Program-made: the position numbers and the translations under genes
From: Candidatus Dormiibacterota bacterium
Lineage (GTDB): Bacteria; Chloroflexota; Dormibacteria; Dormibacterales; Dormibacteraceae
Length of the DNA stretch: 64,000 nt
NCBI GenBank assembly: GCA_963808785.1
Contig: CAWEGH010000008.1
Span: forward strand, 2,668 to 66,667
Reading direction: 5' to 3'
Notes under the pieces: generated by a model
The model's input: the letters and a program-made list of their open reading frames with translations, nothing else
Databases searched by the model: none
Told to the model about the DNA's origin: nothing
Shown here: positions 47,661 to 61,864 of the stretch, in pieces
Position numbering within the stretch: the stretch's first letter is position 1
Layout: the number at the start of each line of letters is the position of its first letter

Positions 47661-47931
47661 CCGACGGCCAGGCGATGTCGTCGATCGCGAGCCACGGCGC
47701 CCGGGCGAACGCGCTGGCGGTCGATCCCATGATGGCCTTGACCTCCCGGTGGAGGCGGGCCGATCGCCGTAGCCACTCTCGGCGAGGAGATGGGCGGCGT
47801 GGTCGAAACGTATCAGCCGGGCCGCGGGCAAACAGGCGACGGCAGGTCGGAAGGCCCGGGCTCAGATAGCCCAGGAGGTAGGTCAACGCGCGTCTGGGCC
47901 ACACGATGCGATACGCGCGTTGTCGACTCAG
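47638..47931 (-). pseudogene. decayed RelE/ParE-like toxin (copy B)
   Basis: The first ~20 codons (LSRQRAYRIVWPRRALTYL) parallel copy A (LSPQRAFRILWRRRSLTHL). The remainder is scrambled across frames. Overlaps the 3' end of the dioxygenase gene. Confidence 0.4.
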
Positions 47932-48109
47932 CGAGAGGCGACCCCGCGACGGCCGATGATCCGGAGGGCCTCCTCGTGGTCGACCAGGTCCGGGTGACCA
48001 CGCTCTATCTCCTGCTCCGCCTGGTCCAATTCCTCGCGCAAACCAGGGTTGGCATCAAAGAGTCTTCGATCACCTCATCGAGCGGATGCCGGCTCACATC
48101 GGTCGCCAT
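47928..48109 (-). pseudogene. antitoxin copy B (paralogue of 48868..49050) with a 1-nt deletion
   Basis: MATDVSRHPLDEVIED, then a frameshift. The corrected frame gives ANPGLREELDQAEQEIERG.PDLVDHEEALRIIGRR, closely matching copy A. Confidence 0.6.
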
Positions 48110-48153
48110 ACCAAGGGGCTCATAAATCGCGCGACCAACAAGGCGCCCACGGC

Positions 48154-48330
48154 TCTATTTGATCCCCGCAGGCCGGGGGACACACGGTACTCGTAGCGCT
48201 CCCGCCAAAGAGGTCCACGGCGGAACCGGCTCACCATGCTCACGAAGATTCTCGATGTAACCAACGATGGCCTCTCGGATCATCTGCTTCACTTCGGCGC
48301 GGGTGTAAGGTCGAACGCGCTGCCTTGAAT
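48154..48330 (-). pseudogene. HicB-like antitoxin fragment
   Basis: TRAEVKQMIREAIVGYIENLREHGEPVPP resembles the conserved HicB/UPF0150 core. The N-terminal part is missing. Confidence 0.4.
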
Positions 48331-48332
48331 GT

Positions 48333-48359
48333 AAAAAGCCCGGGCCTGAGGTCCGGGCT
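48333..48359 (-). terminator. intrinsic terminator following the left copy of the 33-nt repeat
   Basis: Minus strand: GCCCGG-ACCTCAGGC-CCGGGC followed by TTTTTAC. Confidence 0.6.
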
Positions 48360-48370
48360 TGGCGGGATAT

Positions 48371-48403
48371 CGGCTACTCGTCCTCGATCTGGTTGTACAT
48401 CAG
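48371..48403. repeat. 33-nt perfect direct repeat, left copy (putative attL core)
   Basis: CGGCTACTCGTCCTCGATCTGGTTGTACATCAG is identical to 61832-61864. Confidence 0.85.
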
Positions 48404-48598
48404 AAGATGCAATTTCGACCATATGTTCGAGTGATTTTGAACTCAAATCACCGAACTGGCTGCACAAACCTAATGTACTGAGGCTTCTAAGCGCGGTCGT
48501 CGGCGAGCACTCGAAATCGGTCGAATTTGCTAGCGATAAGGCCATCCAGCGGCCCGAGAGCGAGGTGGAGAAAGTCCTGGAAGGGGCCCGGGCCCCGG

Positions 48599-48871
48599 TC
48601 ACCAAGGCCGTGTGCGGCGCCGAGCGTCGCGGACGGCGAGCACGATCATCTCGTTGCCCTCGACCCGATAGAACACTCCCTGGGGAGGCACCGGCGAGTA
48701 CCGGGATCCTCGGCCGACCGCGCGTCCGAGGTTAGTCATCCCGGTCCAGGCGAGCCACTCGACTGCGTCAACGACGGCCTCCGCCTGTCCAGGAGCGCGC
48801 TCAGAGAGCTCGGCCAAGTGGGTCAGCGAGCGTCTGCGCCAGAGGATCCGAAACGCGCGCTGAGGGCTCAG
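48599..48871 (-). CDS. RelE/ParE-family toxin (copy A), no canonical start codon
   Basis: ...PPQGVFYRVEGNEMIVLAVRDARRR C-terminal ParE signature. The frame opens at a CTG that overlaps the antitoxin stop (CTGA). The ORF track starts it at TTG 48817. Confidence 0.55.
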   Translation of the reverse strand: MSPQRAFRILWRRRSLTHLAELSERAPGQAEAVVDAVEWLAWTGMTNLGRAVGRGSRYSPVPPQGVFYRVEGNEMIVLAVRDARRRTRPW

Positions 48872-49050
48872 CGGGACGCGTTCCGGCGGCGGCCGATGAC
48901 CTTGAGCGCCTCTTCGTGGTCGACCAGGTCCGCCTCGCCACGCTCAATCTCGCCCACGGCCTCGTCCAACTCGTCGCGCAAGCCAGGGTTGGCCTCGAAG
49001 ATCTTCTCGATCTCCTCGTCGAGCGGATGCCGGCTGGGGTCGGTCGCCAT
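48868..49050 (-). CDS. small antitoxin (copy A)
   Basis: Uses ATG 49050. MATDPSRHPLDEEIEKIFEANPGLRDELDEAVGEIERGEADLVDHEEALKVIGRRR. Lies directly upstream of, and overlapping, the ParE-like ORF. Confidence 0.55.
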   Translation of the reverse strand: MATDPSRHPLDEEIEKIFEANPGLRDELDEAVGEIERGEADLVDHEEALKVIGRRRNASR

Positions 49051-49396
49051 CGCGTTTGATGCTACCGCCGGTGACCAAGCGCTGCGCCGCATGACGAGGC
49101 ACCTGTCATCAACTCGTTGCGCCGGACGCCCGGCAATCCATGTGGCACCGCGCGGAGGCAGTCAAGGCCGCGAAGCGCCGAAGGGCAGCCTTGACGGCCG
49201 GTGCGGCCGCGACCAGGCTCGGCTCAACGGGTCACGGGCTCGTGACCCATCGGCCGGACCGCTGCCCGCGATACAACACCGCACTCACACTACAAATGCT
49301 CATCCGCTCGCCCCACCAAGCCACCCAACACCGACAGCCACATAACAACAGACACTCAGAACACCCACGAACCATCCAAACCAACGCCCAAATACT

Positions 49397-49467
49397 CGGA
49401 CATTCACGCACCTCAGCCTTTCGAAGAAACCGAGGAACGAGGGGAGGGTGAGGTGCGTGAATGTCCG
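49397..49467 (+). promoter_or_regulatory. perfect 19-bp inverted repeat (33-nt spacer) that encloses an RBS-like GAGGGGAGGG and pairs over ATG 49461
   Basis: CGGACATTCACGCACCTCA (49397-49415) / TGAGGTGCGTGAATGTCCG (49449-49467), read directly. Confidence 0.6.
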
Positions 49468-49685
49468 AGTCCCGTTTCGATCTCGAAACGGGAGCTTTGC
49501 CTGTCCAGTCGGTAGGACACCTGACCAAACAGGCAACCGTCTCGATTTCAGACCATGTACGGACAGCCTCTTGCCACTCAGGCGAGTTTGGATTGGTCCG
49601 CCGGCTCGCCCACGGAGGCCACGCGCAGGAGACGTGCCCACGTACTCTGACGGTGCAGCGCGCGGTTACGGCGGCAGCGAGTGCG

Positions 49686-50277
49686 ATGGTTCTCATCTTC
49701 GAAGGAGCTGACCTGGCAGGCAAGAGCACTCTTGCTCGGCACTACCTTGGCGCGCTCGGCTTGCCAGTCGTCAAGATCCGCTGGGACCTCGGGGATGAGC
49801 GGACAGAGACGATCGCTTTCGCCAGGGTGACCTTGGGGCTCCTGGCCGCAACGCGAGCCGGGGTCATCCTCGACCGTAGCTTCGTCAGCATGTGGGCGTA
49901 CACGCGCGATCCGAAGTGACTACCTGCGTCCCATCATCGAGAGCCTGCGGTACGTACCCGATCTCCACCTGATCGTCTTGACCATGGGCGCGTTGGAACT
50001 GCACCGTCGCTACGTCGAGCGCCCGGACCTGTACTTCAGCGAGAGTCGACTGGAGGAGGTCGACCGACGCTTCGCATTGCTCCCAGCGCTGATGGGCACC
50101 ACGCTTGACGTGCTCCACCTCGACACCGGCGGGATGTCTCCCGATGGCTGTCGCGAGCGCATCGACGACCATCTCGGACTGCACACGGGTCCCTGGCGGC
50201 CAAACGATCGCCGCGGTGGGCAGGAGGTCACGATCCCCATCGGAGAGATCCCGGTCACCATCACGTTCCCGGCCTAA
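49686..50277 (+). pseudogene. thymidylate-kinase-like P-loop kinase with one frameshift
   Basis: MVLIFEGADLAGKST (P-loop) and ILDRSFVSMWAY (DR.xxSxxAY). Stop at 49917. The +1 frame continues DYLRPIIESLRYVPDLHLIVLTMGALELHRRYVERPDLYF... to 50277. Confidence 0.55.
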
Positions 50278-50459
50278 CGCCTATCCAGGCCACCGCCGGG
50301 TACATACTGGGAAGAGCAAGGCGTCACCCACATGGTCCACCAGGCTCACCTCCTTCGCCTCCGGGAGGGGCGAGTCGCTTCCGACACCGCGTTCTGCGGA
50401 GGACGCTGGCCCGCACCGCTGATCGCCGAGATGGCGCAAGCGGCAGCCAGCTTAAGCGG

Positions 50460-50678
50460 CTGAAGGCCTTGCTCACGATCTCCCGCATGGCAGGGCTGCT
50501 CGGTGTCTCGCGCTAAGGGTTCTACGCATGGACTGGGCGCAAAGGGGCGCCGCCGCGCGACGAGGCGTCGGTCGCTGGATGGAGGAGCGCTACAACCGAC
50601 GTCGCGGACACTCCTCGATCGGCATGGTGAGCCCTGCAGCGTTCGAGAAGGCCACACTTCAGACGGCACTCGCCGCCG
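50460..50678 (+). mobile_element. IS3-family transposase remnant (OrfB start fused to OrfB end, internal deletion, in-frame stop)
   Basis: ISRMAGLLGVSR*GFYAWTGRKG (HTH_21-like start) followed after a frameshift by WMEERYNRRRGHSSIGMVSPAAFEKA (typical IS3 OrfB C-terminus). Confidence 0.6.
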
Positions 50679-50806
50679 GATCGATCAGCGGGACGGCGCA
50701 AACTCTCCCGCGGTGCCGACGAGGTCGAGCAGGGCGTCGACGTGTCGCTCGGGGACGATTGGGCAACATCAGCGGGAGGGCGCCGACGTTCGGGGGCGCT
50801 GCAAGC

Positions 50807-52087
50807 CTAGCGGGGTGGAGGCCGCCTCTCCCAGATGTTGTCCTGGAACGCGTCGTAGACGATCGAGAACAGGGACTCAGCCGAGGGGCCGATCGGAGAG
50901 TTGACGAGCACCACCAGCTCCATGTCGTCCGGGAGGTAGAACAGCACCGACTGCTCAACATGTCCGGCGTTGTCTTGCAGGCCCCCGTTCTTCGCGTAGA
51001 GGGTGCCCAGCAGCGTGAAGGTGGCAAAGTCGATCCCGAAGTTGCTGTCGAGCATCGTCTGCGCTTGTTGCTGGCTCACGATCGTGCCGGCGCGACGGAA
51101 CGTGCCCATCACGTTGAGGACATCGTCGATCGTCATGTGCCACCCGGCGCCTCCTGCCATCGTCGTCAGATCGCCAGAGTTCCACCCGGCGCCCGACACC
51201 GGGAAGTTGTAGGCGAGCGCGTCGTCGGGCTCGTGCGCCAGCGTCGCATCGGTTACACCGGAGGGCGCGAACACGTTGGCTTGGACATAGTTCTGGTAGT
51301 CCTGCAGCGTGGCCACGTCCCAGGCCCTGTCGTTGGAGTCGGGCACTTCGAGATGGGGCGGCACCCTCAGCCACGGCGGGACGTTGCCGTTGACCGTCGA
51401 GATCAGGATGCGGCACAGGCCGAAGTTCATGTTCTGGTAGTACCACTTCCCCAGATTGGTCGCGCCGGCCGCGATCTGCGCTTTCATGAACTCGAAGTCC
51501 GACTCCGAGGTGTCAACGTCATAGGCAAGCCCGGACGTGTGCGTCAGCAGATTCGCGAACGTAATCTGGTCTATTTTGGGGCCCTTCTCCCAGTAGTCGG
51601 GCAGGTAGTCGATGATCGGGGTCTTGGACGTGAGGCCCGCCTCGTCGAGCGCCCTGATCATCGCCATCGCGGTCGGCTGCTTGCTCAGGCTGGCCACGTG
51701 ATACCGGACGTCTGGCGTCCAGCTCTCGGCGGTGTCCTGGGGCTCGTGCGCCCAGCCCCAATCGAACCTCCTGAGCGTCTGGCCGCTCTTGTTCAGGGCC
51801 ATCGCGTAGCCCGCGACGGAGTTGTCGAACGCGGCCTGGAGCGTCTCGACAAATCCGTCCGCGTTGAAGATGAAGCCGAGGAACTCTTCCGGACGTCCTC
51901 CGTCCACCGGCCTCGCAGGGGTCGGCGCGCGCTCCACATCGAGACTCCGGTTGGAGGTGAGGCCGAAGACGTTCGCGGGCCGCATCACGTGGGCACGGAT
52001 GGTCGCCGCATCGACCGTGACGCCGCGGATCTGCCTGAGCGCCTCGTCGAGGCGCGCGCTGTCGGTCACGTTCTCAGCGTCGGTCAT
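50807..52087 (-). CDS. beta-lactamase-fold serine hydrolase (paralogue 1)
   Basis: SxxK motif HVASLSKQPTAMAM. YxN motif WYYQNMNFGLCRIL. 426 aa with no obvious signal peptide. Confidence 0.75.
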   Translation of the reverse strand: MTDAENVTDSARLDEALRQIRGVTVDAATIRAHVMRPANVFGLTSNRSLDVERAPTPARPVDGGRPEEFLGFIFNADGFVETLQAAFDNSVAGYAMALNKSGQTLRRFDWGWAHEPQDTAESWTPDVRYHVASLSKQPTAMAMIRALDEAGLTSKTPIIDYLPDYWEKGPKIDQITFANLLTHTSGLAYDVDTSESDFEFMKAQIAAGATNLGKWYYQNMNFGLCRILISTVNGNVPPWLRVPPHLEVPDSNDRAWDVATLQDYQNYVQANVFAPSGVTDATLAHEPDDALAYNFPVSGAGWNSGDLTTMAGGAGWHMTIDDVLNVMGTFRRAGTIVSQQQAQTMLDSNFGIDFATFTLLGTLYAKNGGLQDNAGHVEQSVLFYLPDDMELVVLVNSPIGPSAESLFSIVYDAFQDNIWERRPPPR

Positions 52088-53525
52088 GTCACTCTCCTTG
52101 CGGAGAGGCGAGCCGAGCTCGGCGGCTGTCCGCGGAGGTCGCCGAGGCTCGTCCGTCGGCCCGATCGAACGAGGATCCGGCTCATGGCGAGTCGCGAAGG
52201 CACTCGCAGAACCCTCTCAACGCATCGCGGTCCACTCAATGATCGGCCTCCGGGGTGAATCGTCATGGTCGAGCCTCGTAGACGATGTTGAAAGGGGTCT
52301 CTGCGACCCGTCGGAACCGGGTGAATCCGGCGCCCACCACGATGTTGCGGATCTGTGCCTCACCCGCTTGTGCGCCGAGCGCCAAGCGCCCCTCCTGCGA
52401 CAGTGAGCATGGCGTGCACAGCAGCGTGGAGAAGGCGTAATAGGCGCGGCCCACCGGATTGAGGTTGTCCTCCACGCGATCGCCCGCTGCGGGCTCGACA
52501 ATCATCCACGTTCCATCCGGGGCCAATGCGTCTCGTACATGCCGGGCCGCTCCGGCTGGGTCGCCCATGTCATGGAGGCAGTCGAACATGGTCACCAGGT
52601 CGTAGCCCTGACCGGGGAACGCCGCCGCCGGTGCCACCTCGAAGAGGGTTCTTTCGTGGAGACCAGCTGCCGAGGCCCGCCGGCAAGCAGTCGCGACCGA
52701 AGCGCCGTGGTAGTCGTAGCCGACGAACTTCGAGGCGGGGAAAGCTGAGGACATCAGGATGGTCGAGGCCCCGTGTCCGCATCCCACGTCGGCCACCGAG
52801 GCGCCCTCCTCGAGCTTGGCCACAACGCCGTCCAATGCGGGCAACCATTCCGTGACGAGGTGAGCATTGTATCCGGGGCGGAAGAAGCGCTCGCACCCTT
52901 CGTGCACATCGGCCACGTGATCATCCCAGCCGATCCCGGCGCCGGTCTTAGCGACCTGCATGACCCTGGGCGAATCGATCACCGAGCCAAGTGCGATCTG
53001 GAATATCCCGGGCAGATAGGCGGGACTCGACTCGTCAGTGAGGGCGATTGCCTGCTCGGGCGGTAGGCGGTATCTGTTGCTCTCGGGATCGTACTCGACG
53101 AACCGCCCCGCGGCTTGGGCGCACAACCACTCGCGCGTGTAGCGCTCGGCGGTGCCAGTCCGCTCCGCCAGCTCGATGGAGGTGAGTGGCCCGGCGCCCG
53201 CCAGCGCCTTGTACAGGCCCAGCTTGTCACCCATCACCACCAGGGCGGTGTTGAGTGTGGCGCCGACCTCGTCGACGCCTCGGTGGACGAAGCTCATCAG
53301 TTTGTCCATATCCACGCTGACCACGGATGGCTGTACTGTCATGGTTGACTCCTCTCGAATAAATCATCCCGGCGGGTGCATCCTGGGGGCACGAGGGCAA
53401 GGTACGGCAGCCCACGATGCGAAGTCGTCAGGTATTCGCCCTACAAATCGAGCGGCTCAAGAGAGTCGAGAAGACCGTGCTGCATCGCGAAAAGGGTCGC
53501 TGTGGAGCGGGAGGAGGCTCCGATC
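51990..53525. repeat. 1,536-bp perfect direct repeat, copy 1
   Basis: All ORF translations in this span are duplicated identically at +2,886 nt. I checked the boundaries by eye at both ends. Confidence 0.85.
52263..53342 (-). CDS. winged-helix + class I SAM-dependent methyltransferase (Rv2258c-like architecture), copy 1
   Basis: Motif I ASVADVGCGHGAST. N-terminal LGLYKALAGAGPLTSIELAERTGTAERYTREWL. The 359-aa translation is identical to 55149..56228. Confidence 0.8.
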   Translation of the reverse strand: MTVQPSVVSVDMDKLMSFVHRGVDEVGATLNTALVVMGDKLGLYKALAGAGPLTSIELAERTGTAERYTREWLCAQAAGRFVEYDPESNRYRLPPEQAIALTDESSPAYLPGIFQIALGSVIDSPRVMQVAKTGAGIGWDDHVADVHEGCERFFRPGYNAHLVTEWLPALDGVVAKLEEGASVADVGCGHGASTILMSSAFPASKFVGYDYHGASVATACRRASAAGLHERTLFEVAPAAAFPGQGYDLVTMFDCLHDMGDPAGAARHVRDALAPDGTWMIVEPAAGDRVEDNLNPVGRAYYAFSTLLCTPCSLSQEGRLALGAQAGEAQIRNIVVGAGFTRFRRVAETPFNIVYEARP

Positions 53526-53683
53526 CAGCGCCCTCACCGGCTACCTGACCGCCACCGTCCACCTGCCCGGCACCGGCTTCGTGAACCAGCCTGGACCTCG
53601 GCCTCGGGGATCAAAGTGCGCAGCCGCGCCGCCCCGGTGACCGTGCGCTGAGCGTGCCGTCGGCCGCCGCCCGCCCGGCCGGC

Positions 53684-54973
53684 TCAGAGGTTCGGAACGA
53701 TGTTGCTGAGGTAGAAGTTCTGGACGAGGTCGAGGAGGGGCAGCCCGGGAAACTCGTCGCCGGGTGTCACCGGTGCGACGGGCGAATTGACGAGTACGAC
53801 CACCTCAAAGCCCTGGGGCAGGAAGAAGGCGACCGACTGCTCCACGTGACCAGCGGAGTCCACGAAGCCCCCGGGCTTTGCATAGAGCGTGCCCAGCTCG
53901 GTGGAGGCGATTAGATCAACGCCAATGCCGTTGTCGAGTATCGCCTGGGCCTCCTGAGCCCCCAGAATCGGCAGTCTGCCGGTAAGGAAGGTCCCCATGA
54001 CCGAGGCCAGCTCCCCGGCGGTCATGTGCCACCCCGCCCCGCCGGCCATTGTGGTCAGGTCACCCGAGTCCCAGCCTGGCCGCACGGGTGGAATCGCGTA
54101 GGCGATCGCGTCGTCTGTGGGGTGGTCGAGCGTCGGTCCGGATACGCCCGCCGGCGCGAACACGTGGGATGTGACCCAATTCACGTAGTCGGTGATCGTG
54201 ATCGAATCCCAGACCTGGTCCGTCAGGTTCGCGAGCGAGCCCGTCAGCTGGAAATCTACCGGTATCGACCCATGAACGGTGGCAATCAGAATCCGGCAGA
54301 GGCCGTAGTCCATGTTCTCGTACCAGTACTCGCCGTTGTGAACCGCGCCGTCGGCGACCTGCGCCTTCATGTATTCGTAGTCAGACCTGGACGAGACAAC
54401 GCCGTAGCCGATCCCCGACGTGTGGGTCAACAGCTGCAGGAACGTGACCTCGCTGATGCCCGGCCCCTTCGTCCAATACGCCGGAAGGTAGTCGATGATC
54501 GGGGTCTCGGGTGAGATCAACTGGTCGGTAAGGCACTGCATCATCGCGATCGCGGTGATGATCTTGCTGCAACTGGCGATATGCATCCGCACGCCCGTGC
54601 TCCAGGGCTCGTTGGGGCCTGCGAGCCCCCTAACGTGTGCGAAAGGCTCCTGCGCCCACTGATAGGTGAGCGAGCGAACCGGGTCCCCATCCTGGCGCAG
54701 CTCCATCTGGTAACCGGCGACCTGATCCGCAAGTGTGGACTGCAGGTCAGTAATGAACCCGTCGATGTCGAACACGTGCTGGGCGAGTGACGACGGCGAA
54801 ACGGAGTGACTGTCCGGCGGCTGGCCAAGACCCTGATCCGACCTCACTCCCACAACATTCGGTGGGTACATCACATGGGCACGGATGGTCGCCGCATCGA
54901 CCGTGACGCCGCGGATCTGCCTGAGCGCCTCGTCGAGGCGCGCGCTGTCGGTCACGTTCTCAGCGTCGGTCAT
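53684..54973 (-). CDS. beta-lactamase-fold serine hydrolase (paralogue 2)
   Basis: SxxK motif HIASCSKIITAIAM. YxN motif YWYENMDYGLCRIL. The first 35 aa are identical to paralogue 1 and the rest is strongly diverged. Confidence 0.75.
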   Translation of the reverse strand: MTDAENVTDSARLDEALRQIRGVTVDAATIRAHVMYPPNVVGVRSDQGLGQPPDSHSVSPSSLAQHVFDIDGFITDLQSTLADQVAGYQMELRQDGDPVRSLTYQWAQEPFAHVRGLAGPNEPWSTGVRMHIASCSKIITAIAMMQCLTDQLISPETPIIDYLPAYWTKGPGISEVTFLQLLTHTSGIGYGVVSSRSDYEYMKAQVADGAVHNGEYWYENMDYGLCRILIATVHGSIPVDFQLTGSLANLTDQVWDSITITDYVNWVTSHVFAPAGVSGPTLDHPTDDAIAYAIPPVRPGWDSGDLTTMAGGAGWHMTAGELASVMGTFLTGRLPILGAQEAQAILDNGIGVDLIASTELGTLYAKPGGFVDSAGHVEQSVAFFLPQGFEVVVLVNSPVAPVTPGDEFPGLPLLDLVQNFYLSNIVPNL

Positions 54974-56411
54974 GTCACTCTCCTTGCGGAGAGGCGAGCC
55001 GAGCTCGGCGGCTGTCCGCGGAGGTCGCCGAGGCTCGTCCGTCGGCCCGATCGAACGAGGATCCGGCTCATGGCGAGTCGCGAAGGCACTCGCAGAACCC
55101 TCTCAACGCATCGCGGTCCACTCAATGATCGGCCTCCGGGGTGAATCGTCATGGTCGAGCCTCGTAGACGATGTTGAAAGGGGTCTCTGCGACCCGTCGG
55201 AACCGGGTGAATCCGGCGCCCACCACGATGTTGCGGATCTGTGCCTCACCCGCTTGTGCGCCGAGCGCCAAGCGCCCCTCCTGCGACAGTGAGCATGGCG
55301 TGCACAGCAGCGTGGAGAAGGCGTAATAGGCGCGGCCCACCGGATTGAGGTTGTCCTCCACGCGATCGCCCGCTGCGGGCTCGACAATCATCCACGTTCC
55401 ATCCGGGGCCAATGCGTCTCGTACATGCCGGGCCGCTCCGGCTGGGTCGCCCATGTCATGGAGGCAGTCGAACATGGTCACCAGGTCGTAGCCCTGACCG
55501 GGGAACGCCGCCGCCGGTGCCACCTCGAAGAGGGTTCTTTCGTGGAGACCAGCTGCCGAGGCCCGCCGGCAAGCAGTCGCGACCGAAGCGCCGTGGTAGT
55601 CGTAGCCGACGAACTTCGAGGCGGGGAAAGCTGAGGACATCAGGATGGTCGAGGCCCCGTGTCCGCATCCCACGTCGGCCACCGAGGCGCCCTCCTCGAG
55701 CTTGGCCACAACGCCGTCCAATGCGGGCAACCATTCCGTGACGAGGTGAGCATTGTATCCGGGGCGGAAGAAGCGCTCGCACCCTTCGTGCACATCGGCC
55801 ACGTGATCATCCCAGCCGATCCCGGCGCCGGTCTTAGCGACCTGCATGACCCTGGGCGAATCGATCACCGAGCCAAGTGCGATCTGGAATATCCCGGGCA
55901 GATAGGCGGGACTCGACTCGTCAGTGAGGGCGATTGCCTGCTCGGGCGGTAGGCGGTATCTGTTGCTCTCGGGATCGTACTCGACGAACCGCCCCGCGGC
56001 TTGGGCGCACAACCACTCGCGCGTGTAGCGCTCGGCGGTGCCAGTCCGCTCCGCCAGCTCGATGGAGGTGAGTGGCCCGGCGCCCGCCAGCGCCTTGTAC
56101 AGGCCCAGCTTGTCACCCATCACCACCAGGGCGGTGTTGAGTGTGGCGCCGACCTCGTCGACGCCTCGGTGGACGAAGCTCATCAGTTTGTCCATATCCA
56201 CGCTGACCACGGATGGCTGTACTGTCATGGTTGACTCCTCTCGAATAAATCATCCCGGCGGGTGCATCCTGGGGGCACGAGGGCAAGGTACGGCAGCCCA
56301 CGATGCGAAGTCGTCAGGTATTCGCCCTACAAATCGAGCGGCTCAAGAGAGTCGAGAAGACCGTGCTGCATCGCGAAAAGGGTCGCTGTGGAGCGGGAGG
56401 AGGCTCCGATC
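54876..56411. repeat. 1,536-bp perfect direct repeat, copy 2
   Basis: See copy 1. Offset 2,886 nt. Confidence 0.85.
55149..56228 (-). CDS. winged-helix + class I SAM-dependent methyltransferase, copy 2
   Basis: The 359-aa translation is identical to 52263..53342. Confidence 0.8.
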   Translation of the reverse strand: MTVQPSVVSVDMDKLMSFVHRGVDEVGATLNTALVVMGDKLGLYKALAGAGPLTSIELAERTGTAERYTREWLCAQAAGRFVEYDPESNRYRLPPEQAIALTDESSPAYLPGIFQIALGSVIDSPRVMQVAKTGAGIGWDDHVADVHEGCERFFRPGYNAHLVTEWLPALDGVVAKLEEGASVADVGCGHGASTILMSSAFPASKFVGYDYHGASVATACRRASAAGLHERTLFEVAPAAAFPGQGYDLVTMFDCLHDMGDPAGAARHVRDALAPDGTWMIVEPAAGDRVEDNLNPVGRAYYAFSTLLCTPCSLSQEGRLALGAQAGEAQIRNIVVGAGFTRFRRVAETPFNIVYEARP

Positions 56412-57928
56412 TTGGAGTAAATCCGCTCTATATGCGTGCCGGCCGTCTTCGGGGTGATTCCGAGAAAGCGTGCTACCTGCTTGTTCGCCGCACCGCGGGC
56501 GATGAGGAGCAGCACCTCGATCTCGCGCTCGGTCAGACCGGCCGCGACACTGTGCCGCCTACTTCGCCGCCGCCCCGTAGCGGTGAGGACCGCGTCGACT
56601 GCATCCGGGGCCAAGCGACCGGACCGGACTTGGAGTCGGAGCTGCTCGATGGCCACCTTCGCCGTGAGTGCCGGGCGGTAGGAGCGAGGCTCGGTCATTG
56701 CCTGGTAAGCGCAGGCGGCAGCGAGGATCCGTCCGCCTAGGGGGATCGCCGGCCCTACCAGGCCCCGGTGATAGCCCGAGCCATCGAGTCGCTCGTTTAC
56801 CGTCGCCGCGACCGCACCGATTCGGGCCAAGGCCGCTGGGCGGCTCAGCATTCGTTCGGTGTAGTAGGCGTGCATCCGCACCCGCTCCCGTTCGCGGACG
56901 GTAAGCGGCCCGGGCTTGTCGAGGATGGTGGCCGGTATGCCGTGGAACCCTAGATCGTGCACCAGGCCGGCTCGGCGTATCAGTCGGACCTGAGGCGGCG
57001 GCAGGCCGCAAAGCTCACCGGCAGCGCTAGCCAAGTTGGCCACCGCTCGGGAGTGCCCCGCACGAAACGTCGACCGCAGGTCGGTGAAGTCCGCGATCGC
57101 CTCCAGCGCGCCGTCCAGGTCGTCCCCTGTCAGTCGGCGCTGCAGGCCCGATTCGCGCTCGATCAGCCCGTCCCAGTCAGGCACCTCGTTCATGTCTGCG
57201 AGCACCTCCGCCGGGGCCGCGCAGAACGCATCCACTACCGCGGGGTCGAACTGGCCGCCGCGCCACGATTCGGCCAGCTCAACAGCTTCATCGAGGCCCT
57301 CCGTGCGGTGGATCACCTCCAGCACGTCGGCAAGATGGAACAGCCGCATGGTCAGGGCGATCTGCTCGCCGGCGATCCCGACAGGGACGCCCTTGCCGTC
57401 CCAGCGAGTGAACACTTGCTGCAGCGGATTACAGATCTCGCTGAGACCCAACCTTTCCGCCATAACCGCCGTCGTCGCGCAGTGAGCCATCAGCCCCCGC
57501 TCCACGGCCGCACCCCCGGTGGCGACCAGCGCGGCTGCGAGGCGGAGGCGATGCAATGGCGAGCCCCCCGCGCCGACGTGGCGGAGCACGAACGCCGTCA
57601 TCGGCAGTCCAGCCCGATCCACGCCGAAGCTGTCGCCTCGGTACGCGATGTCGTTGCCGAACCACGCCGCCACCTCCGGCGTGTCTGCAACACAACCGAC
57701 CCAGCTCAACGTGGCCACGTAGAAGAGTAACTCGCGCTCGTTCGCCTGCAAGCCGATGCGCTCGCTCATGCGTGCAGCAATCAGCCATGCCCGCAGGACA
57801 TGCTCCATGGGCTGGCCGAGGCCGAGATCGGTCGCAAGCGAGAATGCAGCGATCAGTTCAGACAGACGAACACCTGAGTCATCACTCATGTCTCTTCTTG
57901 TCGGGGGAGTCGCCACTGTGGATTTCAC
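56327..57928 (-). CDS. HD-GYP-like phosphohydrolase domain fused to a LuxR-type HTH
   Basis: LVHDLGFHGIPATILDKPGPLTVRERERVRMH...NERLDGSGYHRGL (HD-GYP pattern with HHE replaced by VNE). C-terminus LTEREIEVLLLIARGAANKQVARFLGITPKTAGTHIERIYSKIG. Confidence 0.75.
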   Translation of the reverse strand: MKSTVATPPTRRDMSDDSGVRLSELIAAFSLATDLGLGQPMEHVLRAWLIAARMSERIGLQANERELLFYVATLSWVGCVADTPEVAAWFGNDIAYRGDSFGVDRAGLPMTAFVLRHVGAGGSPLHRLRLAAALVATGGAAVERGLMAHCATTAVMAERLGLSEICNPLQQVFTRWDGKGVPVGIAGEQIALTMRLFHLADVLEVIHRTEGLDEAVELAESWRGGQFDPAVVDAFCAAPAEVLADMNEVPDWDGLIERESGLQRRLTGDDLDGALEAIADFTDLRSTFRAGHSRAVANLASAAGELCGLPPPQVRLIRRAGLVHDLGFHGIPATILDKPGPLTVRERERVRMHAYYTERMLSRPAALARIGAVAATVNERLDGSGYHRGLVGPAIPLGGRILAAACAYQAMTEPRSYRPALTAKVAIEQLRLQVRSGRLAPDAVDAVLTATGRRRSRRHSVAAGLTEREIEVLLLIARGAANKQVARFLGITPKTAGTHIERIYSKIGASSRSTATLFAMQHGLLDSLEPLDL

Positions 57929-58338
57929 CAGTGCGGGTCGGGGGTCTCGCCGAGGCGGTGCAGCACGTGCAAAACCTACTCGTACCCAGCGGCCGGCGCC
58001 TTGTCGATCGAACGGGAATCACCGGGACCCCTCCCGTCAGAGCGGACATACTCGGCGGCACCCAGAAGAAACATCGCATGCGTCGTACGAAGGTCCTCGG
58101 GTCGTCGGTTGGCGCGTCAGGTCCGTTGACAAGCACCGCGGCCGCTCCGGTGGCAGTCAGGTCTCAGATCGACCAAGATGCGTTGCACCAAGGAACGCGA
58201 CCTCCTGGGTCGCACCGTGCCGCATGGTTGCCGGTGCGTCCTAAATGGGGCGAAGGGGTGCAGGGGGAACCGCCCCGGCGTCGGTTCCCCCGCCCGGTCC
58301 GCCAGGACCGACGTGATGGCCGCCTCCGATCAAACCAA

Positions 58339-59412
58339 ACACATGTATGGGGTATCCATTTGAGTGGCAGCGCCCCCAAGATCTAGTAATCGCTCCGGGG
58401 CGCGATGAGCTCGTAGTACGGATGAGGATCGGTGGCAACGGCCTGCTCCACGAGCCGGTACCAGAGCAGCCCGCGAGCCTTGGAGGCTCGACGGTTGAAG
58501 CGGAACGTGTACTCGTCGAGGTAGTACCCGAGCTGACGGGCATCCAGGCCGTTCTGGATGGTTCCGGCGAGCCAGCGTTTGAGCAGCGACGCGACTCGGT
58601 GGACACCCGGCAGCAGTTCGTGCGCCAACGAGCCGGAGTGCTCGATGGTCCGCTGATCGACGGTCACTCCGACCTTCTCGCCGAAGTCCTGGTAAAGGGG
58701 GTCGCCATCCGTCTGCAGGATCGATCCCGGGGCCACGTTCGTTTTCGCGAAGCTCACCAGGTCGAGCTTTCGACGCGTCCGGTCGATGACCGACATCCGA
58801 ATGCGACCCAGCCCTCGCATCTGAGCCGCTGCATGCTCGACCGCGATCACGACCTCGGCCTTGTTGTAGTACCGCGGCGTATTCATTCCGGGCGTCCGGC
58901 CACCGATGAAGGTGCAGTCCATCTCGACCACTCGGCCTGGACCTCCGAGCTTCTCGCGGTCCGGACGCACCATGGCGCGGCGCAGTTTGTGCATCCAGGC
59001 CCAGGCGGTCTGGTACGAGCCGAACCCGAGGACGCGCTGCAGACCCAGGGCCGAGACGCCGTTCTTCTGGGCGCAGATGAACCACATAGCCGCGAACCAG
59101 GTCGGGAGCGGCAGGTGCGAACGGTGGAAGATCGTGCCCGCGGTTGCCGACGTTTTGCGCCCACAGCGCCGGCACATCCATCGGGGCCCGGCCACTTTCC
59201 AGGCGTCCCCGTGCCCACATGCCGGACACACGAAGCCAGCCTTCCACCGCACACGGGCCAGGAACTCGACGCAACTGCCCTCGTCCGGAAACCATCGCTC
59301 GAATGCCTGCCAGCCTCCGGGGTAGTCGCGACCGGCTTGAGGGTGATCTTCATCTGCCACGAGCACAAGATACTGGGGCTACTGCATTCAAGCAGATACC
59401 CCATACACATGT
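58339..59412 (-). mobile_element. IS1595-family insertion sequence
   Basis: Terminal inverted repeats ACACATGTATGGGGTATC (58339-58356) and GATACCCCATACACATGT (59395-59412) match at 16 of 18 positions. No clear target duplication seen. Confidence 0.8.
58383..59366 (-). CDS. IS1595-family (ISXO2-like) transposase
   Basis: N-terminal zinc ribbon FVCPACGH...WMCRRCGRKTS. DDE region VEMDCTFIGG...ILQTDGDPLY...DEYTFRFNRR. Confidence 0.9.
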   Translation of the reverse strand: MLVADEDHPQAGRDYPGGWQAFERWFPDEGSCVEFLARVRWKAGFVCPACGHGDAWKVAGPRWMCRRCGRKTSATAGTIFHRSHLPLPTWFAAMWFICAQKNGVSALGLQRVLGFGSYQTAWAWMHKLRRAMVRPDREKLGGPGRVVEMDCTFIGGRTPGMNTPRYYNKAEVVIAVEHAAAQMRGLGRIRMSVIDRTRRKLDLVSFAKTNVAPGSILQTDGDPLYQDFGEKVGVTVDQRTIEHSGSLAHELLPGVHRVASLLKRWLAGTIQNGLDARQLGYYLDEYTFRFNRRASKARGLLWYRLVEQAVATDPHPYYELIAPRSDY

Positions 59413-59552
59413 ACGAGGCTGGGCCGCCCCGGGAGCCGCGAAACGCCGTGGATGCCACCCCGTCCGGGTGCCGGACTATCCCGGGAGCCCGGGCATGTCG
59501 CGCCCCCCGTCCGGACTGGACCCCGGTCGCTGCTCCGGAGCGACCATGGATG

Positions 59553-59966
59553 TCACGTCGGCCCGCGCGGGGCCTTCCGCCGGCGAGGTTTCCAGAGCCG
59601 CCCGCCCCGCGGCCCGTACACGAACGCGGTCGCTGGGGCTTGGTCAACCATTCGGTGTACCCACCGGTGGACAATCTCCGAGCGCCACTGATCCTCGGAG
59701 AGCGCCGAGCCGCGAGGCAGGGCGTCGGTGATGCACACCGATACCGTCGATCGCGCGATGGCGTCCGCGTGGTCACGAGGCATGTTGACATCCCCGGTCA
59801 CGAGGACAGGGTCCGGCTCGCGCTGTGTGAGCTCATCCAGCAGCGCCGAGTCATCAGCGCCACGCAGCCCGAGGGCACCGATCGTGATGGCCCGCCGCCC
59901 GCGTCGATCCAGTTCGGTCGCGAGCCGCTTGTGGAGGCTTTCGTCGACCACGATGAGCCGGGCCAA
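59553..59966 (-). CDS. PIN-like toxin-type protein (DUF5615/Mut7-C-like)
   Basis: MARLIVVDESLHKRLATELDRRGRRAITIGALGLRGADDSALLDEL...PVLVTGDVNM. Lies immediately downstream of a DUF433-type gene. Confidence 0.6.
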   Translation of the reverse strand: MARLIVVDESLHKRLATELDRRGRRAITIGALGLRGADDSALLDELTQREPDPVLVTGDVNMPRDHADAIARSTVSVCITDALPRGSALSEDQWRSEIVHRWVHRMVDQAPATAFVYGPRGGRLWKPRRRKAPRGPT

Positions 59967-59974
59967 GCTCGGGC

Positions 59975-60655
59975 TCAGGCGGCTGGCGCGAGTTCTGAAA
60001 CGGCCGCGTACCAGCGGACAGCGTCGTCGATCTCCGCGTCAGAGAGGTCGTAGCCCTCACGAAGCGTCGCCCACCCATCGTGTTCGGCTGCCATCCGGGC
60101 GACCTGCTCCGCAGGGATGCGGCGACCACGGACACTTGGCGTCCCGCCGATCTTCGCGGGATCCACCTCGATCGTCTTGACATCCAGGTCGCGAACCACC
60201 CAACCACCTCGCCGAAGCAGGGCTGCGATCTCCTGCAGGTGCGCGTACGGCAGTAAGGGCTGATCACCACGTGCGTGATTCGCGTGGAGTACCTCGCGCC
60301 CTTCTCGGACGCCGAGGAAGGGCGCCGCACCCTCGTCAACATCGGCCGTGACCAGGTCGGCCGTAGTCAACGGCCAGTCCCCGTACTTCTCCCGCAGGTT
60401 TTGGATCGCCGAGCGGATCTCCCGCTGGGGAACACCGCGGTCCAGCAGCTCGTGCACCACGATCGCTTCGGCGACGTCCTGGAAGCTGTACACGCGGGGC
60501 CGACCCTCCGACCGTGACGACCGGATGTATCCGTGCCGGGCCCATTGGCCAATTCGGTCGCCGGACACTCCGGCGAGCCAGCCGACCTCATGTGCCAGGT
60601 ACCACCCCACCGGCGGTGACTCCGCTTGGTGGGTGACGGTTTGCATGCCGGTCAT
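59975..60655 (-). CDS. MerR-like HTH + DUF433 domain protein (putative antitoxin partner)
   Basis: WYLAHEVGWLAGVSGDRIGQWARHGYI...YSFQDVAEAIVVHELL (MerR-like). C-terminus DPAKIGGTPSVRGRRIPAEQVARMAAEHDG...YDLSDAEIDDAVRWY (DUF433). The start is uncertain, between 60646 and 60775. Confidence 0.6.
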   Translation of the reverse strand: MTGMQTVTHQAESPPVGWYLAHEVGWLAGVSGDRIGQWARHGYIRSSRSEGRPRVYSFQDVAEAIVVHELLDRGVPQREIRSAIQNLREKYGDWPLTTADLVTADVDEGAAPFLGVREGREVLHANHARGDQPLLPYAHLQEIAALLRRGGWVVRDLDVKTIEVDPAKIGGTPSVRGRRIPAEQVARMAAEHDGWATLREGYDLSDAEIDDAVRWYAAVSELAPAA

Positions 60656-60764
60656 CCTATCCATCTCGGGCATCCAAGGCTCCCCGAACGAATGTACGAG
60701 CCCTGAGACGGCCGCAACGCCCGGAAAGGCACTCGCGCAACTCCTGACACGTGGTCCCGGACGG

Positions 60765-61706
60765 TCAGTCGCCATCGGGCCGCAGCGCCTTGATGAGCGC
60801 GTTGTAGACGTCGCCGGAGGTCAGGTGGCCGTAGTGCTGGTGGATCATCCGCAGCGACGTGTGGCCCAGCATCTCGGCCACCAGCATCGGGTTCATCCCC
60901 TGCTGCAGAAGAAACGTGGCGGCCGCGTGCCGGAAGGCATGGGGCCGTACGGGCTTCCCCAGGTCCGCGGCGTCGCCCAGGTTGTAGAGCATCTGCTCCA
61001 GGCCGGCGTAGGAGAGCGGACGGTCGAGCCCGGTGCGGTCGCGCTTGAGCGTTCGAAAGAGGTGCTGCTCCGGGTCCAGGTGGCGGCCAAGACGGCGCAT
61101 CCGGCGGAAGGTCGACGGCGTGACCGGCACCAGCCGCTCGCGCGATCCCTTGCCGAAGACCTTGACCATGGTCCGCGGGCCGCTCTGCGTCAGGTCTCGC
61201 ATCCGGATCCCCAGGAGCTCTGAGGCGCGCAGGCCAGTCTCGGACAGGACACGCACGATGACCGCATCACGGTCGGAGCGGGCGAGATCCTCGAGCTTGG
61301 CGATCTCTTCCCGTGTCAGGACGTCCATCACGCGCTTAGGCAGACGCGGGGTCCGAGCTCGTGCTCGGCCTCCGCCGCCCTCCCGCTCTGCCCAACCGAG
61401 GAAGACGTTGATCGCGTTGAGGTAGGAGTTGACGCTGTACTTGCTGAGGGGCTTGCCTCTCGCTGCGCCCACGCCCTCCTGCAGCTGGATCGAGAGCCGG
61501 TTTAGGGTCCGCTGATCGAGCTGGGCCACGTCGTCGATGCCTTCGCGGTCGCAGAACGGGAGCAACACCTTCTCCAGCGGATAGCGGTATGTCACCCGCA
61601 GGGTCTTCGGCGAGAGGCCTCGCGCGGCGCAGTCCAGGAGGTAGTCCGACACCAGCCGCGAGATTGCGGAGGGGGGCTCCGTTTTCGATACGAGTTTTAC
61701 GTTCAA
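60765..61706 (-). CDS. tyrosine-type site-specific integrase
   Basis: TTG start at 61706. RDAVIVRVLSETGLRASELLGI...; HAFRHAAATFLLQQGMNPMLVAEMLGHTSLRMIHQHYGH. Confidence 0.9.
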   Translation of the reverse strand: MNVKLVSKTEPPSAISRLVSDYLLDCAARGLSPKTLRVTYRYPLEKVLLPFCDREGIDDVAQLDQRTLNRLSIQLQEGVGAARGKPLSKYSVNSYLNAINVFLGWAEREGGGGRARARTPRLPKRVMDVLTREEIAKLEDLARSDRDAVIVRVLSETGLRASELLGIRMRDLTQSGPRTMVKVFGKGSRERLVPVTPSTFRRMRRLGRHLDPEQHLFRTLKRDRTGLDRPLSYAGLEQMLYNLGDAADLGKPVRPHAFRHAAATFLLQQGMNPMLVAEMLGHTSLRMIHQHYGHLTSGDVYNALIKALRPDGD

Positions 61707-61793
61707 ACCTGGGTTACTGTACTATCTAAGTGCGATCGTCGTCAAGGGGTCGCAAGCGATCGTGAGAAGCTCGAAGAGGCTACTTTTGAATAC

Positions 61794-61819
61794 AAAAAAG
61801 CCCGAGCCGAAGCCCGGGC
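61794..61819 (-). terminator. intrinsic terminator following the right copy of the 33-nt repeat
   Basis: Minus strand: GCCCGGGC-TTCG-GCTCGGGC followed by TTTTTTG. Confidence 0.65.
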
Positions 61820-61831
61820 GTGGACAATGTC

Positions 61832-61864
61832 CGGCTACTCGTCCTCGATCTGGTTGTACATCAG
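61832..61864. repeat. 33-nt perfect direct repeat, right copy (putative attR core)
   Basis: Identical to 48371-48403. The integrase start lies about 125 nt to its left. Confidence 0.85.

What the first reader, a model, noticed from the sequence alone, without database searches (positions are those of the whole stretch)
51990..56411. Perfect 1,536-bp direct repeat places two diverged serine-hydrolase genes behind identical 5' ends, promoters and methyltransferase genes
nt 51990-53525 and 54876-56411 (offset 2,886) appear identical. The 359-aa methyltransferase ORF and every shadow ORF in the track recur with identical translations.

The repeat begins 98 nt inside the hydrolase genes. As a result the two hydrolases share the first 35 residues (MTDAENVTDSARLDEALRQIRGVTVDAATIRAHVM) and the whole upstream region, while the rest of the proteins (426 vs 429 aa) is strongly diverged.

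The repeat ends 85 nt inside the HD-GYP/LuxR gene. That leaves an orphan 3' fragment of that gene at 53441-53525.

Zero divergence over 1.5 kb next to old paralogues implies one of two things: a very recent duplication or gene conversion, or recombination that swaps alternative hydrolase bodies behind one expression module.
Basis: seen in the sequence. Interest (0 to 1): 0.62.

Follow-up and report, generated by a model that had tools for sequence, protein, structure and literature searches.

The report
Recent duplication made a chimeric hydrolase
A 1.5-kb stretch (end of a regulator gene, a methyltransferase gene, start of a hydrolase gene) is present twice without a single difference, because a foreign hydrolase gene body was recently spliced in behind a second copy of it; this is an ordinary kind of gene rearrangement, caught very early.

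Summary

The two hydrolases were not old neighbours. They belong to two old lineages (dS about 1.1). HydA has the native A-type N-terminus. All five B-type relatives begin MDSD...ALRS..GITVDP, but HydB begins with HydA's first 33 codons, so HydB is a chimera. The joint lies in 5 nt (GCCCA) inside the conserved IRAHVM-coding patch.

No B-type relative has the methyltransferase or regulator upstream. Four independent long contigs carry a single unit: regulator, methyltransferase, A-type hydrolase. The repeated segment is therefore one natively contiguous piece.

The locus is best read as that single unit plus a recent 2,886-nt addition: B-type body, 158 nt of unknown 3' flank, and a second copy of the segment. 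It has two novel joints with little or no homology. That argues against simple gene conversion between old duplicates.

Nothing indicates a programmed switch. Across genomes, though, what follows the methyltransferase has been replaced repeatedly.

Interest is modest.

The parts
51990..53525 (.). Repeat copy 1 (R1), 1,536 nt: 85-nt orphan 3' fragment of the HD-GYP/LuxR gene, 98-nt spacer, methyltransferase gene MT1, 175-nt spacer, first 98 nt of HydA
   Evidence: Exact identity to 54876-56411
54876..56411 (.). Repeat copy 2 (R2), 1,536 nt: last 85 nt of the intact HD-GYP/LuxR gene, spacer, MT2, spacer, first 98 nt of HydB
50807..52087 (-). HydA, 426 aa, A-type beta-lactamase-fold (PF00144) serine hydrolase with its native N-terminus MTDAENV...
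   Evidence: Pfam. Relatives at 89-91% aa share the same N-terminus. SxxK (SLSK) and YxN (YQN) are present.
53684..54973 (-). HydB, 429 aa, chimera: A-type codons 1-33 joined in frame to a B-type hydrolase body
   Evidence: Protein and nucleotide alignments with five B-type relatives, which all start MDSD..ALRS..GITVDP. Intact ORF with SCSK and YEN motifs. AF2 model: mean pLDDT 86, class C / DD-peptidase fold.
54876..54880 (-). Left joint (crossover interval): 5 nt, GCCCA on the coding strand, between the last A-type-specific base (54881) and the first B-type-specific base (54875). It lies inside the conserved ATCCGYGCNCAYGTGATG (IRAHVM) patch.
   Evidence: Nucleotide alignment of A-type, B-type and chimeric 5' ends
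53526..53683 (-). 158-nt 3' flank carried in with the B-type body. Homology to B-type relatives ends 9-23 nt after the stop (53661-53675); the remaining ~135 nt are of unknown origin.
   Evidence: no real match in the genome, in 40 relatives or in any fetched locus
53525..53526 (.). Right joint: unknown 3' flank of HydB joined to codon 507 of the HD-GYP/LuxR reading frame, with no homology across it
   Evidence: Sequence comparison of 53480-53700 with 56366-56586
53441..53525 (-). Orphan 3' fragment of the HD-GYP/LuxR gene (last 27 codons plus stop)
   Evidence: tblastn 100% to residues 507-533; translation IGASSRSTATLFAMQHGLLDSLEPLDL*
52263..53342 (-). MT1, 359 aa, Rv2258c-like winged-helix domain plus class I SAM methyltransferase
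   Evidence: PF21320 and several Methyltransf families
55149..56228 (-). MT2, identical to MT1
56327..57928 (-). HD-GYP(HD_5)/LuxR(GerE) regulator gene, 533 aa. Its C-terminal 27 residues (inside R2) are conserved with orthologues, so this end of the repeat is native here.
   Evidence: Pfam; C-terminal comparison with G002, L019 and L020; reads VNE..DGSGYH at the HHE..GYP position
48371..61864 (.). 13.5-kb integrative island that carries the whole locus. Exact 33-nt direct repeats at 48371-48403 and 61832-61864, tyrosine integrase at 60765-61706 (-), IS1595-type transposase at 58383-59366 (-).
   Evidence: Outside the module genes themselves, none of the related loci compared matches this part of the window.

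Best explanation
The starting state was a single mobile module: HD-GYP/LuxR regulator, Rv2258c-like methyltransferase, A-type hydrolase (HydA). It sat on a 13.5-kb integrative island.

Very recently a 2,886-nt piece was added. It consists of the body of a B-type hydrolase from codon 34 onwards, 158 nt of that gene's 3' flank, and a second copy of the 1,536-nt segment R. R runs from codon 507 of the regulator, through the methyltransferase, to codon 33 of the hydrolase.

The result is R - B body - R - A body, with two new joints:
- Joint 1 is in frame, inside the short conserved IRAHVM-coding patch (about 5 nt of identity). It makes HydB a chimera of an A-type N-terminal helix and a B-type catalytic core.
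- Joint 2 has no homology. It joins the 3' flank of HydB to codon 507 of the regulator.

Inferred mechanism: either a replication template switch out to a B-type gene and back, or an illegitimate exchange between two variants of the module that already differed in their hydrolase body.

Inferred consequence: two methyltransferase copies and two different hydrolases, each hydrolase behind the same upstream sequence. The arrangement is unstable, because recombination between the two direct 1.5-kb copies would delete or amplify the unit. It is a snapshot of gene capture and chimera formation, not a programmed switch.

Shown: the identity, the chimerism, the joints, single-unit relatives, and the lack of linkage of B-type genes to the module. 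Inferred: the order of events, the mechanism, and the effect on expression.
For: 1. Exact 1,536-nt identity. Other repeats in the same assembly keep 0.1-1.4% differences, so the pipeline does not homogenise repeats.

2. HydB residues 1-33 are A-type. All five B-type relatives (79-89% aa) have a different N-terminus, MDSD....

3. In seven loci of four different contexts, B-type relatives have no methyltransferase or regulator upstream.

4. Both ends of R are native to one continuous piece. Its hydrolase 5' end matches HydA relatives as well as the gene body does (88.8-94.8% against 91-93%). Its regulator end encodes the conserved C-terminus.

5. Four independent ENA contigs (L054-L057) carry the single unit regulator-MT-A-type hydrolase. 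L043 carries MT 3' end, spacer and HydA contiguously at 91%.

6. The left joint has only about 5 nt of identity, between bodies that are about 65% identical with dS 1.09. The right joint has none.

7. HydA and HydB both have much closer relatives elsewhere (dS 0.19 and about 0.30) than each other, so the paralogues are old while R shows 0 differences.

8. In the AF2 model the swapped residues 1-33 are an N-terminal helical appendage, followed by a low-confidence linker before the catalytic core. This fits a tolerated chimera.
Against: No reads could be laid on the locus, so the arrangement rests on one assembly.

No native B-type gene and no reciprocal product exist in this 91%-complete genome. 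The donor of the B body and of its 135-nt unknown flank is unidentified.

The same-genus genome G002 (and L045) also has a short 3' fragment of the regulator gene upstream of an A-type hydrolase, with a different breakpoint 20-29 nt further in. That could mean the fragment-bearing duplicate is older than I infer and was later homogenised.

L044 carries a clearly different methyltransferase lineage (72% aa) upstream of a 91%-identical HydA. This shows the history of the module is more tangled than a single event.
Confidence: 0.6

Rival explanations
1. Old tandem duplication of the unit [regulator 3' fragment - methyltransferase - hydrolase]. The hydrolase bodies diverged, while the 1.5-kb part was recently, or is repeatedly, homogenised by RecA-dependent gene conversion.
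For: Zero divergence next to strongly diverged bodies is the classic picture. G002 and L045 also have a regulator 3' fragment plus spacer plus the first 11 methyltransferase codons fused to an A-type hydrolase. That fragment is about 85% identical to G002's own regulator end, so fragment-bearing duplicates can be old. The L044 methyltransferase branches outside the G000+G002 pair (99/93 support), which is compatible with two methyltransferase lineages and one overwritten in G000.
Against: A conversion tract would have had to run through the hydrolase 5' end, where native A- and B-type sequences differ strongly, and stop within 5 nt of identity with only about 65% identity beyond it. B-type relatives are never linked to the module. 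The Hyd-end of R is A-type while the regulator end is the functional regulator C-terminus, so no single donor copy explains both ends unless R was one contiguous native piece. The 167/158 nt downstream of the two hydrolases do not align. The fragment breakpoint differs from G002's.
Confidence: 0.17
2. Assembly or polishing artefact. Two variants of the island in the sampled population (one with the A body, one with the chimeric B body) were joined in tandem, or two similar copies were polished to identity.
For: The genome is a 17-contig, 91%-complete assembly and looks like a metagenome bin. The contig is only 67 kb. No reads could be examined. The locus is not found in any other assembly.
Against: The 53525/53526 joint (unknown flank joined to regulator codon 507) is not something an assembler creates from two variants that share R. 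The assembly resolves many other internal repeats (1.5-9.6 kb) and keeps their 0.1-1.4% differences, as expected of long reads. A comparable fragment-hydrolase joint exists independently in G002 and L045.
Confidence: 0.08
3. A dedicated cassette-exchange system. The conserved N-terminal coding segment and the sharply bounded hydrolase ORFs act as recombination handles, so that alternative hydrolase bodies are captured or exchanged behind the methyltransferase module. The duplicated state would be an intermediate.
For: There are at least six different architectures at or just before the hydrolase 5' end across genomes. dS of the hydrolase (0.19) is four times lower than that of the adjacent methyltransferase and regulator (0.70-0.75) between G000 and L055. 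A-type genes in five contexts lose homology at the same places, -12 and +15.
Against: I found no recombinase, inverted repeat or conserved site associated with the joints. The repeats are direct. The joints differ in position from genome to genome (codon 4, about codon 10, codon 33, -12). The only integrase has its own 33-nt att sites at the island ends. Recombination between paralogues bounded by the extent of paralogue homology explains the sharp edges.
Confidence: 0.07

Closest known systems
Segmental duplication with chimeric (fusion) paralogue formation, as in duplication-amplification and innovation-amplification-divergence models of bacterial gene evolution (own knowledge: Bergthorsson/Andersson/Roth; Reams and Roth)
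   Same: Direct repeat created by joints with little or no homology. The arrangement is young and unstable, the dosage of the duplicated gene (the methyltransferase) is doubled, and a new hybrid ORF sits at one joint.
   Different: This is not a plain head-to-tail duplication of one segment. The material between the copies (B-type body plus flank) is foreign to the module, so a second template or a second module variant was involved.
Gene conversion between paralogues (for example the tufA/tufB pair of Salmonella; own knowledge)
   Same: Identical sequence shared by two loci whose surroundings differ.
   Different: The tract end lies where homology is minimal. One 'paralogue' (B-type behind a methyltransferase) is not seen anywhere else. 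Tested here and not favoured.
Orphan C-terminal cassettes of CDI/Rhs polymorphic toxins, which swap behind a constant N-terminal part (own knowledge; a CDI paper surfaced but was not read)
   Same: A constant 5' part with alternative 3' bodies arranged in tandem. A short conserved coding stretch serves as the recombination point.
   Different: Here both genes are complete, each with its own upstream region and methyltransferase. There are no silent promoterless cassettes and no immunity genes. The proteins are cytoplasmic-looking serine hydrolases.
Class C beta-lactamase / DD-peptidase / D-stereospecific amidohydrolase fold (PF00144; R61 DD-peptidase, alkaline D-peptidase 4y7p, D-amino-acid amidase 2drw)
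   Same: Pfam match, SxxK and YxN motifs, and an AF2 model that matches these structures (target-normalised TM 0.64-0.71).
   Different: Only 14-19% identity to solved structures. There is an extra ~65-85-residue N-terminal helix-plus-linker. I saw no signal-peptide-like N-terminus on reading the sequence. The substrate is unknown.

Membership tests
Recent segmental duplication (direct repeat) | Two copies in the same orientation with no or minimal divergence | tested here: met
   1,536/1,536 identical at offset 2,886
Recent segmental duplication (direct repeat) | A novel joint that does not exist in single-copy relatives | tested here: met
   The 53525/53526 joint is absent from the single-unit loci L054-L057 and from G002
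Recent segmental duplication (direct repeat) | Physical existence confirmed by reads spanning both copies | not testable with these tools
The only indirect support is that other repeats are resolved in the assembly.
Gene conversion between pre-existing paralogous loci | Adequate homology flanking both ends of the identical tract | tested here: not met
   Left end: 5 nt of identity, then about 65% identity. Right end: homology stops exactly at the tract end.
Gene conversion between pre-existing paralogous loci | Both loci exist as diverged duplicates in relatives | tested here: inconclusive
   No relative has a B-type gene behind a methyltransferase. However, G002 and L045 have an old regulator fragment upstream of an A-type gene.
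Programmed DNA switch (invertible element, shufflon, silent-cassette exchange) | Inverted repeats or promoterless cassettes, plus a dedicated site-specific recombinase acting at the joints | tested here: not met
   No inverted repeats. The repeats are direct, and both genes have full upstream regions. The only integrase belongs to the island's 33-nt att sites.
PF00144 serine hydrolase (class C beta-lactamase / DD-peptidase fold) | Pfam match above gathering score; SxxK, YxN and K/H-x-G motifs; the fold | tested here: met
   Bits 91 and 85 against a cut-off of 27. S133/K136, Y217/N219 and K366/G368 are invariant in the alignment. Foldseek probability 1.00 to DD-peptidases.
Rv2258c-like SAM methyltransferase | N-terminal Rv2258c-type winged helix (PF21320) plus a class I SAM-methyltransferase domain | tested here: met
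   PF21320 at 70.7 bits, and Methyltransf_12/23/25/31 above their cut-offs
Catalytically active HD-GYP c-di-GMP phosphodiesterase | HD ... HHE ... DGxGYP signature (consensus from own knowledge) | tested here: not met
   The HD_5 domain matches (124.8 bits) and HD is present at residue 324. But the sequence reads VNERLDGSGYH in place of HHE..GYP. It is probably a degenerate sensor or regulator domain.
Integrative genomic island | Tyrosine integrase next to one of two direct att-like repeats | tested here: met
   Exact 33-nt repeats at 48371 and 61832. The integrase gene (60765-61706) lies about 125 nt inside the right-hand repeat.

The most novel reading that the evidence does not exclude
The hydrolase ORFs are mobile 'ORF cassettes' with defined ends: about 12 nt before the ATG and about 15 nt after the stop, plus the conserved IRAHVM-coding handle. 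They are repeatedly captured behind Rv2258c-like methyltransferase modules by a semi-specific recombination process. On this reading the R-X-R state seen here is a living intermediate of cassette exchange that lets a population vary which hydrolase is co-expressed with the methyltransferase.
Probability: 0.07. Interest if true: 0.65.

Novelty: new member of a known kind. Interest (0 to 1): 0.3.

Why it matters
This is a clean natural snapshot of how a new chimeric enzyme gene is made and placed under an existing expression context. There is zero divergence, both joints are readable, and both parental lineages can be identified in other genomes.

It also shows that the methyltransferase-hydrolase pairing has been rebuilt several times in different ways. 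That hints at a functional coupling between an uncharacterised Rv2258c-like methyltransferase and a D-peptidase/esterase-like hydrolase, which could be tested by co-expression and assay.

It does not reveal a new kind of genetic system.

Tried and rejected
- Exact-protein look-ups of HydB and the methyltransferase in public assemblies found nothing outside this genome.
- A plain tandem duplication of a 2,886-nt unit is rejected. The 167/158 nt downstream of the two hydrolases do not align, and the bodies are about 65% identical.
- Origin of the 135-nt flank after HydB: no real match in this genome, in 40 relatives or in any fetched locus. Only short GC-rich chance hits appeared.
- The search for a native B-type gene or a reciprocal chimera in this genome found only HydA, HydB and HydC.
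- The promoter/terminator consensus scan and the Rfam scan of the locus gave nothing useful. The one Rfam hit was a spurious miRNA match on a hairpin at 49394-49470.
- Distant metagenome relatives of HydA (L032-L036, 53-63% aa) have no methyltransferase or regulator nearby, so they did not help.
- The literature on Rv2258c gave no function beyond 'small-molecule methyltransferase-like'.


Full report
OBSERVATION

Comparing the window with itself at offset 2,886 gives a single uninterrupted identical run, 51990-53525 = 54876-56411 (1,536 nt). BLAST of that segment against the whole 4.48-Mb, 17-contig genome finds exactly these two copies at 100%. The other hits are two methyltransferase paralogues at 67-69% and the 5' end of a third hydrolase gene on contig C2.

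All genes are on the minus strand. In transcription order they are:
- HD-GYP(HD_5)/LuxR(GerE) regulator, 56327-57928
- MT2, 55149-56228
- HydB, 53684-54973
- an 85-nt orphan copy of the regulator's last 27 codons, 53441-53525
- MT1, 52263-53342
- HydA, 50807-52087

The repeat (R) runs from regulator codon 507 to nucleotide 98 of the hydrolase ORF.

ASSEMBLY QUALITY

A self-comparison of the genome shows many other long repeats resolved inside contigs. These include a 9.6-kb tandem pair at 98.6% and IS-like copies of 1.5-2.7 kb at 99.2-100%. This is what a long-read assembly looks like, and it shows that the pipeline does not polish repeats to identity. The joint between the 3' flank of HydB and regulator codon 507 is also not something an assembler would invent from two variants. 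I put an artefact at about 8%.

CONTEXT

The locus lies on a 13.5-kb island bounded by exact 33-nt direct repeats (48371-48403 and 61832-61864). The island has a tyrosine integrase at 60765-61706 and an IS1595-type transposase next to the regulator gene. Hydrolases of this type occur in only 2 of 121 sampled genomes of the family, namely this genome and one same-genus genome, G002. Where a source names the homologues, it assigns them to Solirubrobacterales/Solirubrobacteraceae metagenome bins.

THE TWO HYDROLASES ARE OLD LINEAGES AND HydB IS A CHIMERA

HydA and HydB are 48% identical after residue 35, with dS 1.09 and dN 0.47. Each has much closer relatives elsewhere:
- A-type proteins at 72-91% aa: P0002-P0008, P0159, and HydC on contig C2.
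- B-type proteins at 79-89% aa: P0122-P0125.

In the alignment every A-type protein starts MTDAENV..RLDEALRQIRGVTVDAATIRAHVM. The one exception is G002/L045 (MTTDPSAM..), whose first codons come from a methyltransferase gene. Every B-type relative starts MDSD..ALRS..GITVDP..IRAHVMYPPN. HydB alone has the A-type residues 1-33 followed by the B-type YPPN... body.

At nucleotide level, HydB follows HydA up to ...ATCCGT and follows the B-type genes from CAT GTG ATG TAC onward. The joint therefore lies in the 5 nt GCCCA (window 54876-54880). These 5 nt sit inside an 18-nt patch conserved because it encodes the invariant IRAH(V/L)M.

THE REPEATED SEGMENT IS ONE NATIVE PIECE

The hydrolase end of R is A-type. 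It is 88.8-94.8% identical to the HydA relatives, the same as the gene body at 91-93%. The regulator end of R encodes the conserved C-terminus IGASSRSTATLFAMQHGLLDSLEPLDL, as in orthologues from three other genomes. One end is thus 'at home' in copy 1 and the other in copy 2, which is what is expected if R was originally single and continuous.

Four independent ENA contigs from three samples (L054-L057) carry exactly such a single unit: regulator, methyltransferase, A-type hydrolase. The Logan contig L043 has methyltransferase 3' end, spacer and HydA contiguous at 91%. By contrast, the B-type relatives sit in four unrelated contexts: behind an S9 peptidase, a He_PIG protein, a MarR gene, and a fourth context. 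None has a methyltransferase or regulator upstream.

RECONSTRUCTION

The locus equals the single unit plus 2,886 nt: B body from codon 34, 158 nt of 3' flank, and a second R. There are two novel joints:
- Joint 1 is in frame, with about 5 nt of identity.
- Joint 2 (53525/53526) has no homology.

Homology of the flank to B-type relatives ends 9-23 nt after the stop. The remaining ~135 nt match nothing I could search.

RecA-type gene conversion between old duplicates fits poorly. The tract would have to cross the dissimilar hydrolase 5' ends and stop where flanking identity is about 65%. A plain tandem duplication followed by replacement would need the replacement to end exactly at the earlier duplication joint.

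The most economical readings need only the two joints that are seen:
- a template switch during replication, out to a B-type gene at the conserved patch and back to regulator codon 507; or
- an illegitimate exchange between two variants of the module that already differed in hydrolase body.

These mechanisms are inferences. With no differences in about 600 effectively neutral sites, the divergence of the copies is below roughly 0.5%. The dS to the nearest relatives is 0.19.

COMPLICATIONS

G002 (and L045, the same species at 98.5%) has a 105-135-nt 3' fragment of the regulator gene, the regulator-methyltransferase spacer, and the first 11 methyltransferase codons fused to an A-type hydrolase. 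This block sits in a variable chromosomal region. Its breakpoint lies 20-29 nt further into the regulator gene than in this window. It is about 85% identical to G002's own regulator end, so it is an older and probably independent partial duplication. It keeps the conversion rival alive at about 17%.

The module is also mosaic in other ways:
- Between this genome and L055, dS is 0.75 for the methyltransferase and 0.70 for the regulator, but 0.19 for the hydrolase.
- In L054-L057 the methyltransferase stop overlaps a new start, and 17 new codons are fused to hydrolase codon 4.
- In the G002 representative the same methyltransferase (96% to L055) is followed by an FAD oxidoreductase, with homology ending 33 nt after the stop.
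- In L044 a 72%-identical methyltransferase and an unrelated spacer precede a 91%-identical HydA.

What follows the methyltransferase has therefore been replaced repeatedly. A-type genes in five contexts lose homology at the same places, about -12 and +15. I read this as recombination bounded by the extent of paralogue homology, but I did not exclude a cassette-like behaviour.

FUNCTION

Both hydrolases are intact PF00144 proteins with SxxK, YxN and KxG motifs. The AF2 model of HydB has mean pLDDT 86 and pTM 0.89. It shows an N-terminal helix (residues 2-17), a short helix (27-32) and a low-confidence linker before the core. The core matches DD-peptidases, D-stereospecific amidases and class C beta-lactamases. 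The chimeric joint falls right after the N-terminal appendage, which fits a tolerated swap.

The methyltransferase is Rv2258c-like. The literature searched gives no substrate for it. The regulator's HD-GYP signature reads VNE..GYH, so it is probably degenerate. What the module does chemically remains unknown. The repeated re-pairing of methyltransferase and hydrolase suggests, but does not show, a shared substrate.

VERDICT

This is a real, very recent duplicative rearrangement that captured a foreign hydrolase body and made a chimeric gene. It is an ordinary kind of event seen unusually early. It is not a programmed switch, and not simply conversion between old neighbours.

Noticed in passing
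window 48371-48403 and 61832-61864: Exact 33-nt direct repeats bound a 13.5-kb island with a tyrosine integrase (60765-61706), a PIN-like gene (59553-59966) and an IS1595-type transposase (58383-59366). The whole hydrolase locus is island cargo.
   Followed up: partly
window 50790-50806 and 52088-52100; L030, L043, L044, L046, L055: A-type hydrolase genes in at least five unrelated contexts lose homology at the same two places: about 12 nt before the ATG (AAGGAGAGTGAC) and 15-17 nt after the stop (GCTTGCAGYGCCCCC). At dS 0.19 neutral flanks should still align, so the flanks are different DNA.
   Followed up: partly
L055 6842-7189 and 11421-11766 (also L056, L057): The single-unit regulator-MT-hydrolase module is bracketed by a 348-nt direct repeat (95%) that is the end of an IS30-like (HTH_38 + rve) element. 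In L054 and L057 the regulator gene is called at only 292 aa (622 aa in L055 and L056), and in L054 an IS110-type transposase gene lies just upstream.
   Followed up: no
window 56327-57928 (protein residues about 320-420): The HD-GYP domain has HD but reads VNERLDGSGYH where the consensus has HHE..DGxGYP. It is probably a degenerate, non-catalytic domain fused to a LuxR helix-turn-helix.
   Followed up: no
L028 about 8190-8200 (G002:C8) versus L045 8001-9284: The A-type hydrolase of the G002 representative genome is split by a frameshift near codon 313, whereas the 98.5%-identical ENA contig L045 has it intact (427 aa). This is either a sequencing error or a real pseudogene.
   Followed up: no
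G000:C9:300591-319787 (outside the window): A 9.6-kb head-to-tail tandem duplication at 98.6% identity, and several IS-like repeat families of 1.5-2.7 kb at 99.2-100%.
   Followed up: no
L045 7697-14265 versus G000:C11:293363-297398: A chromosomal variable region. The flanks are syntenic at 80-84% between the two species. The 6.5 kb in G002/L045 is a mosaic of pieces whose counterparts lie on four different G000 contigs (C8/C2, C4, C16, C7).
   Followed up: partly
window 49394-49470: A strong hairpin gives a spurious Rfam hit (mir-3149, 35 bits, E 0.0014, far below the gathering score).
   Followed up: no
window 47700-50800: Few frames here show the codon-position GC pattern of real genes, so the region between the island's left end and HydA looks gene-poor or decayed.
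   Followed up: no
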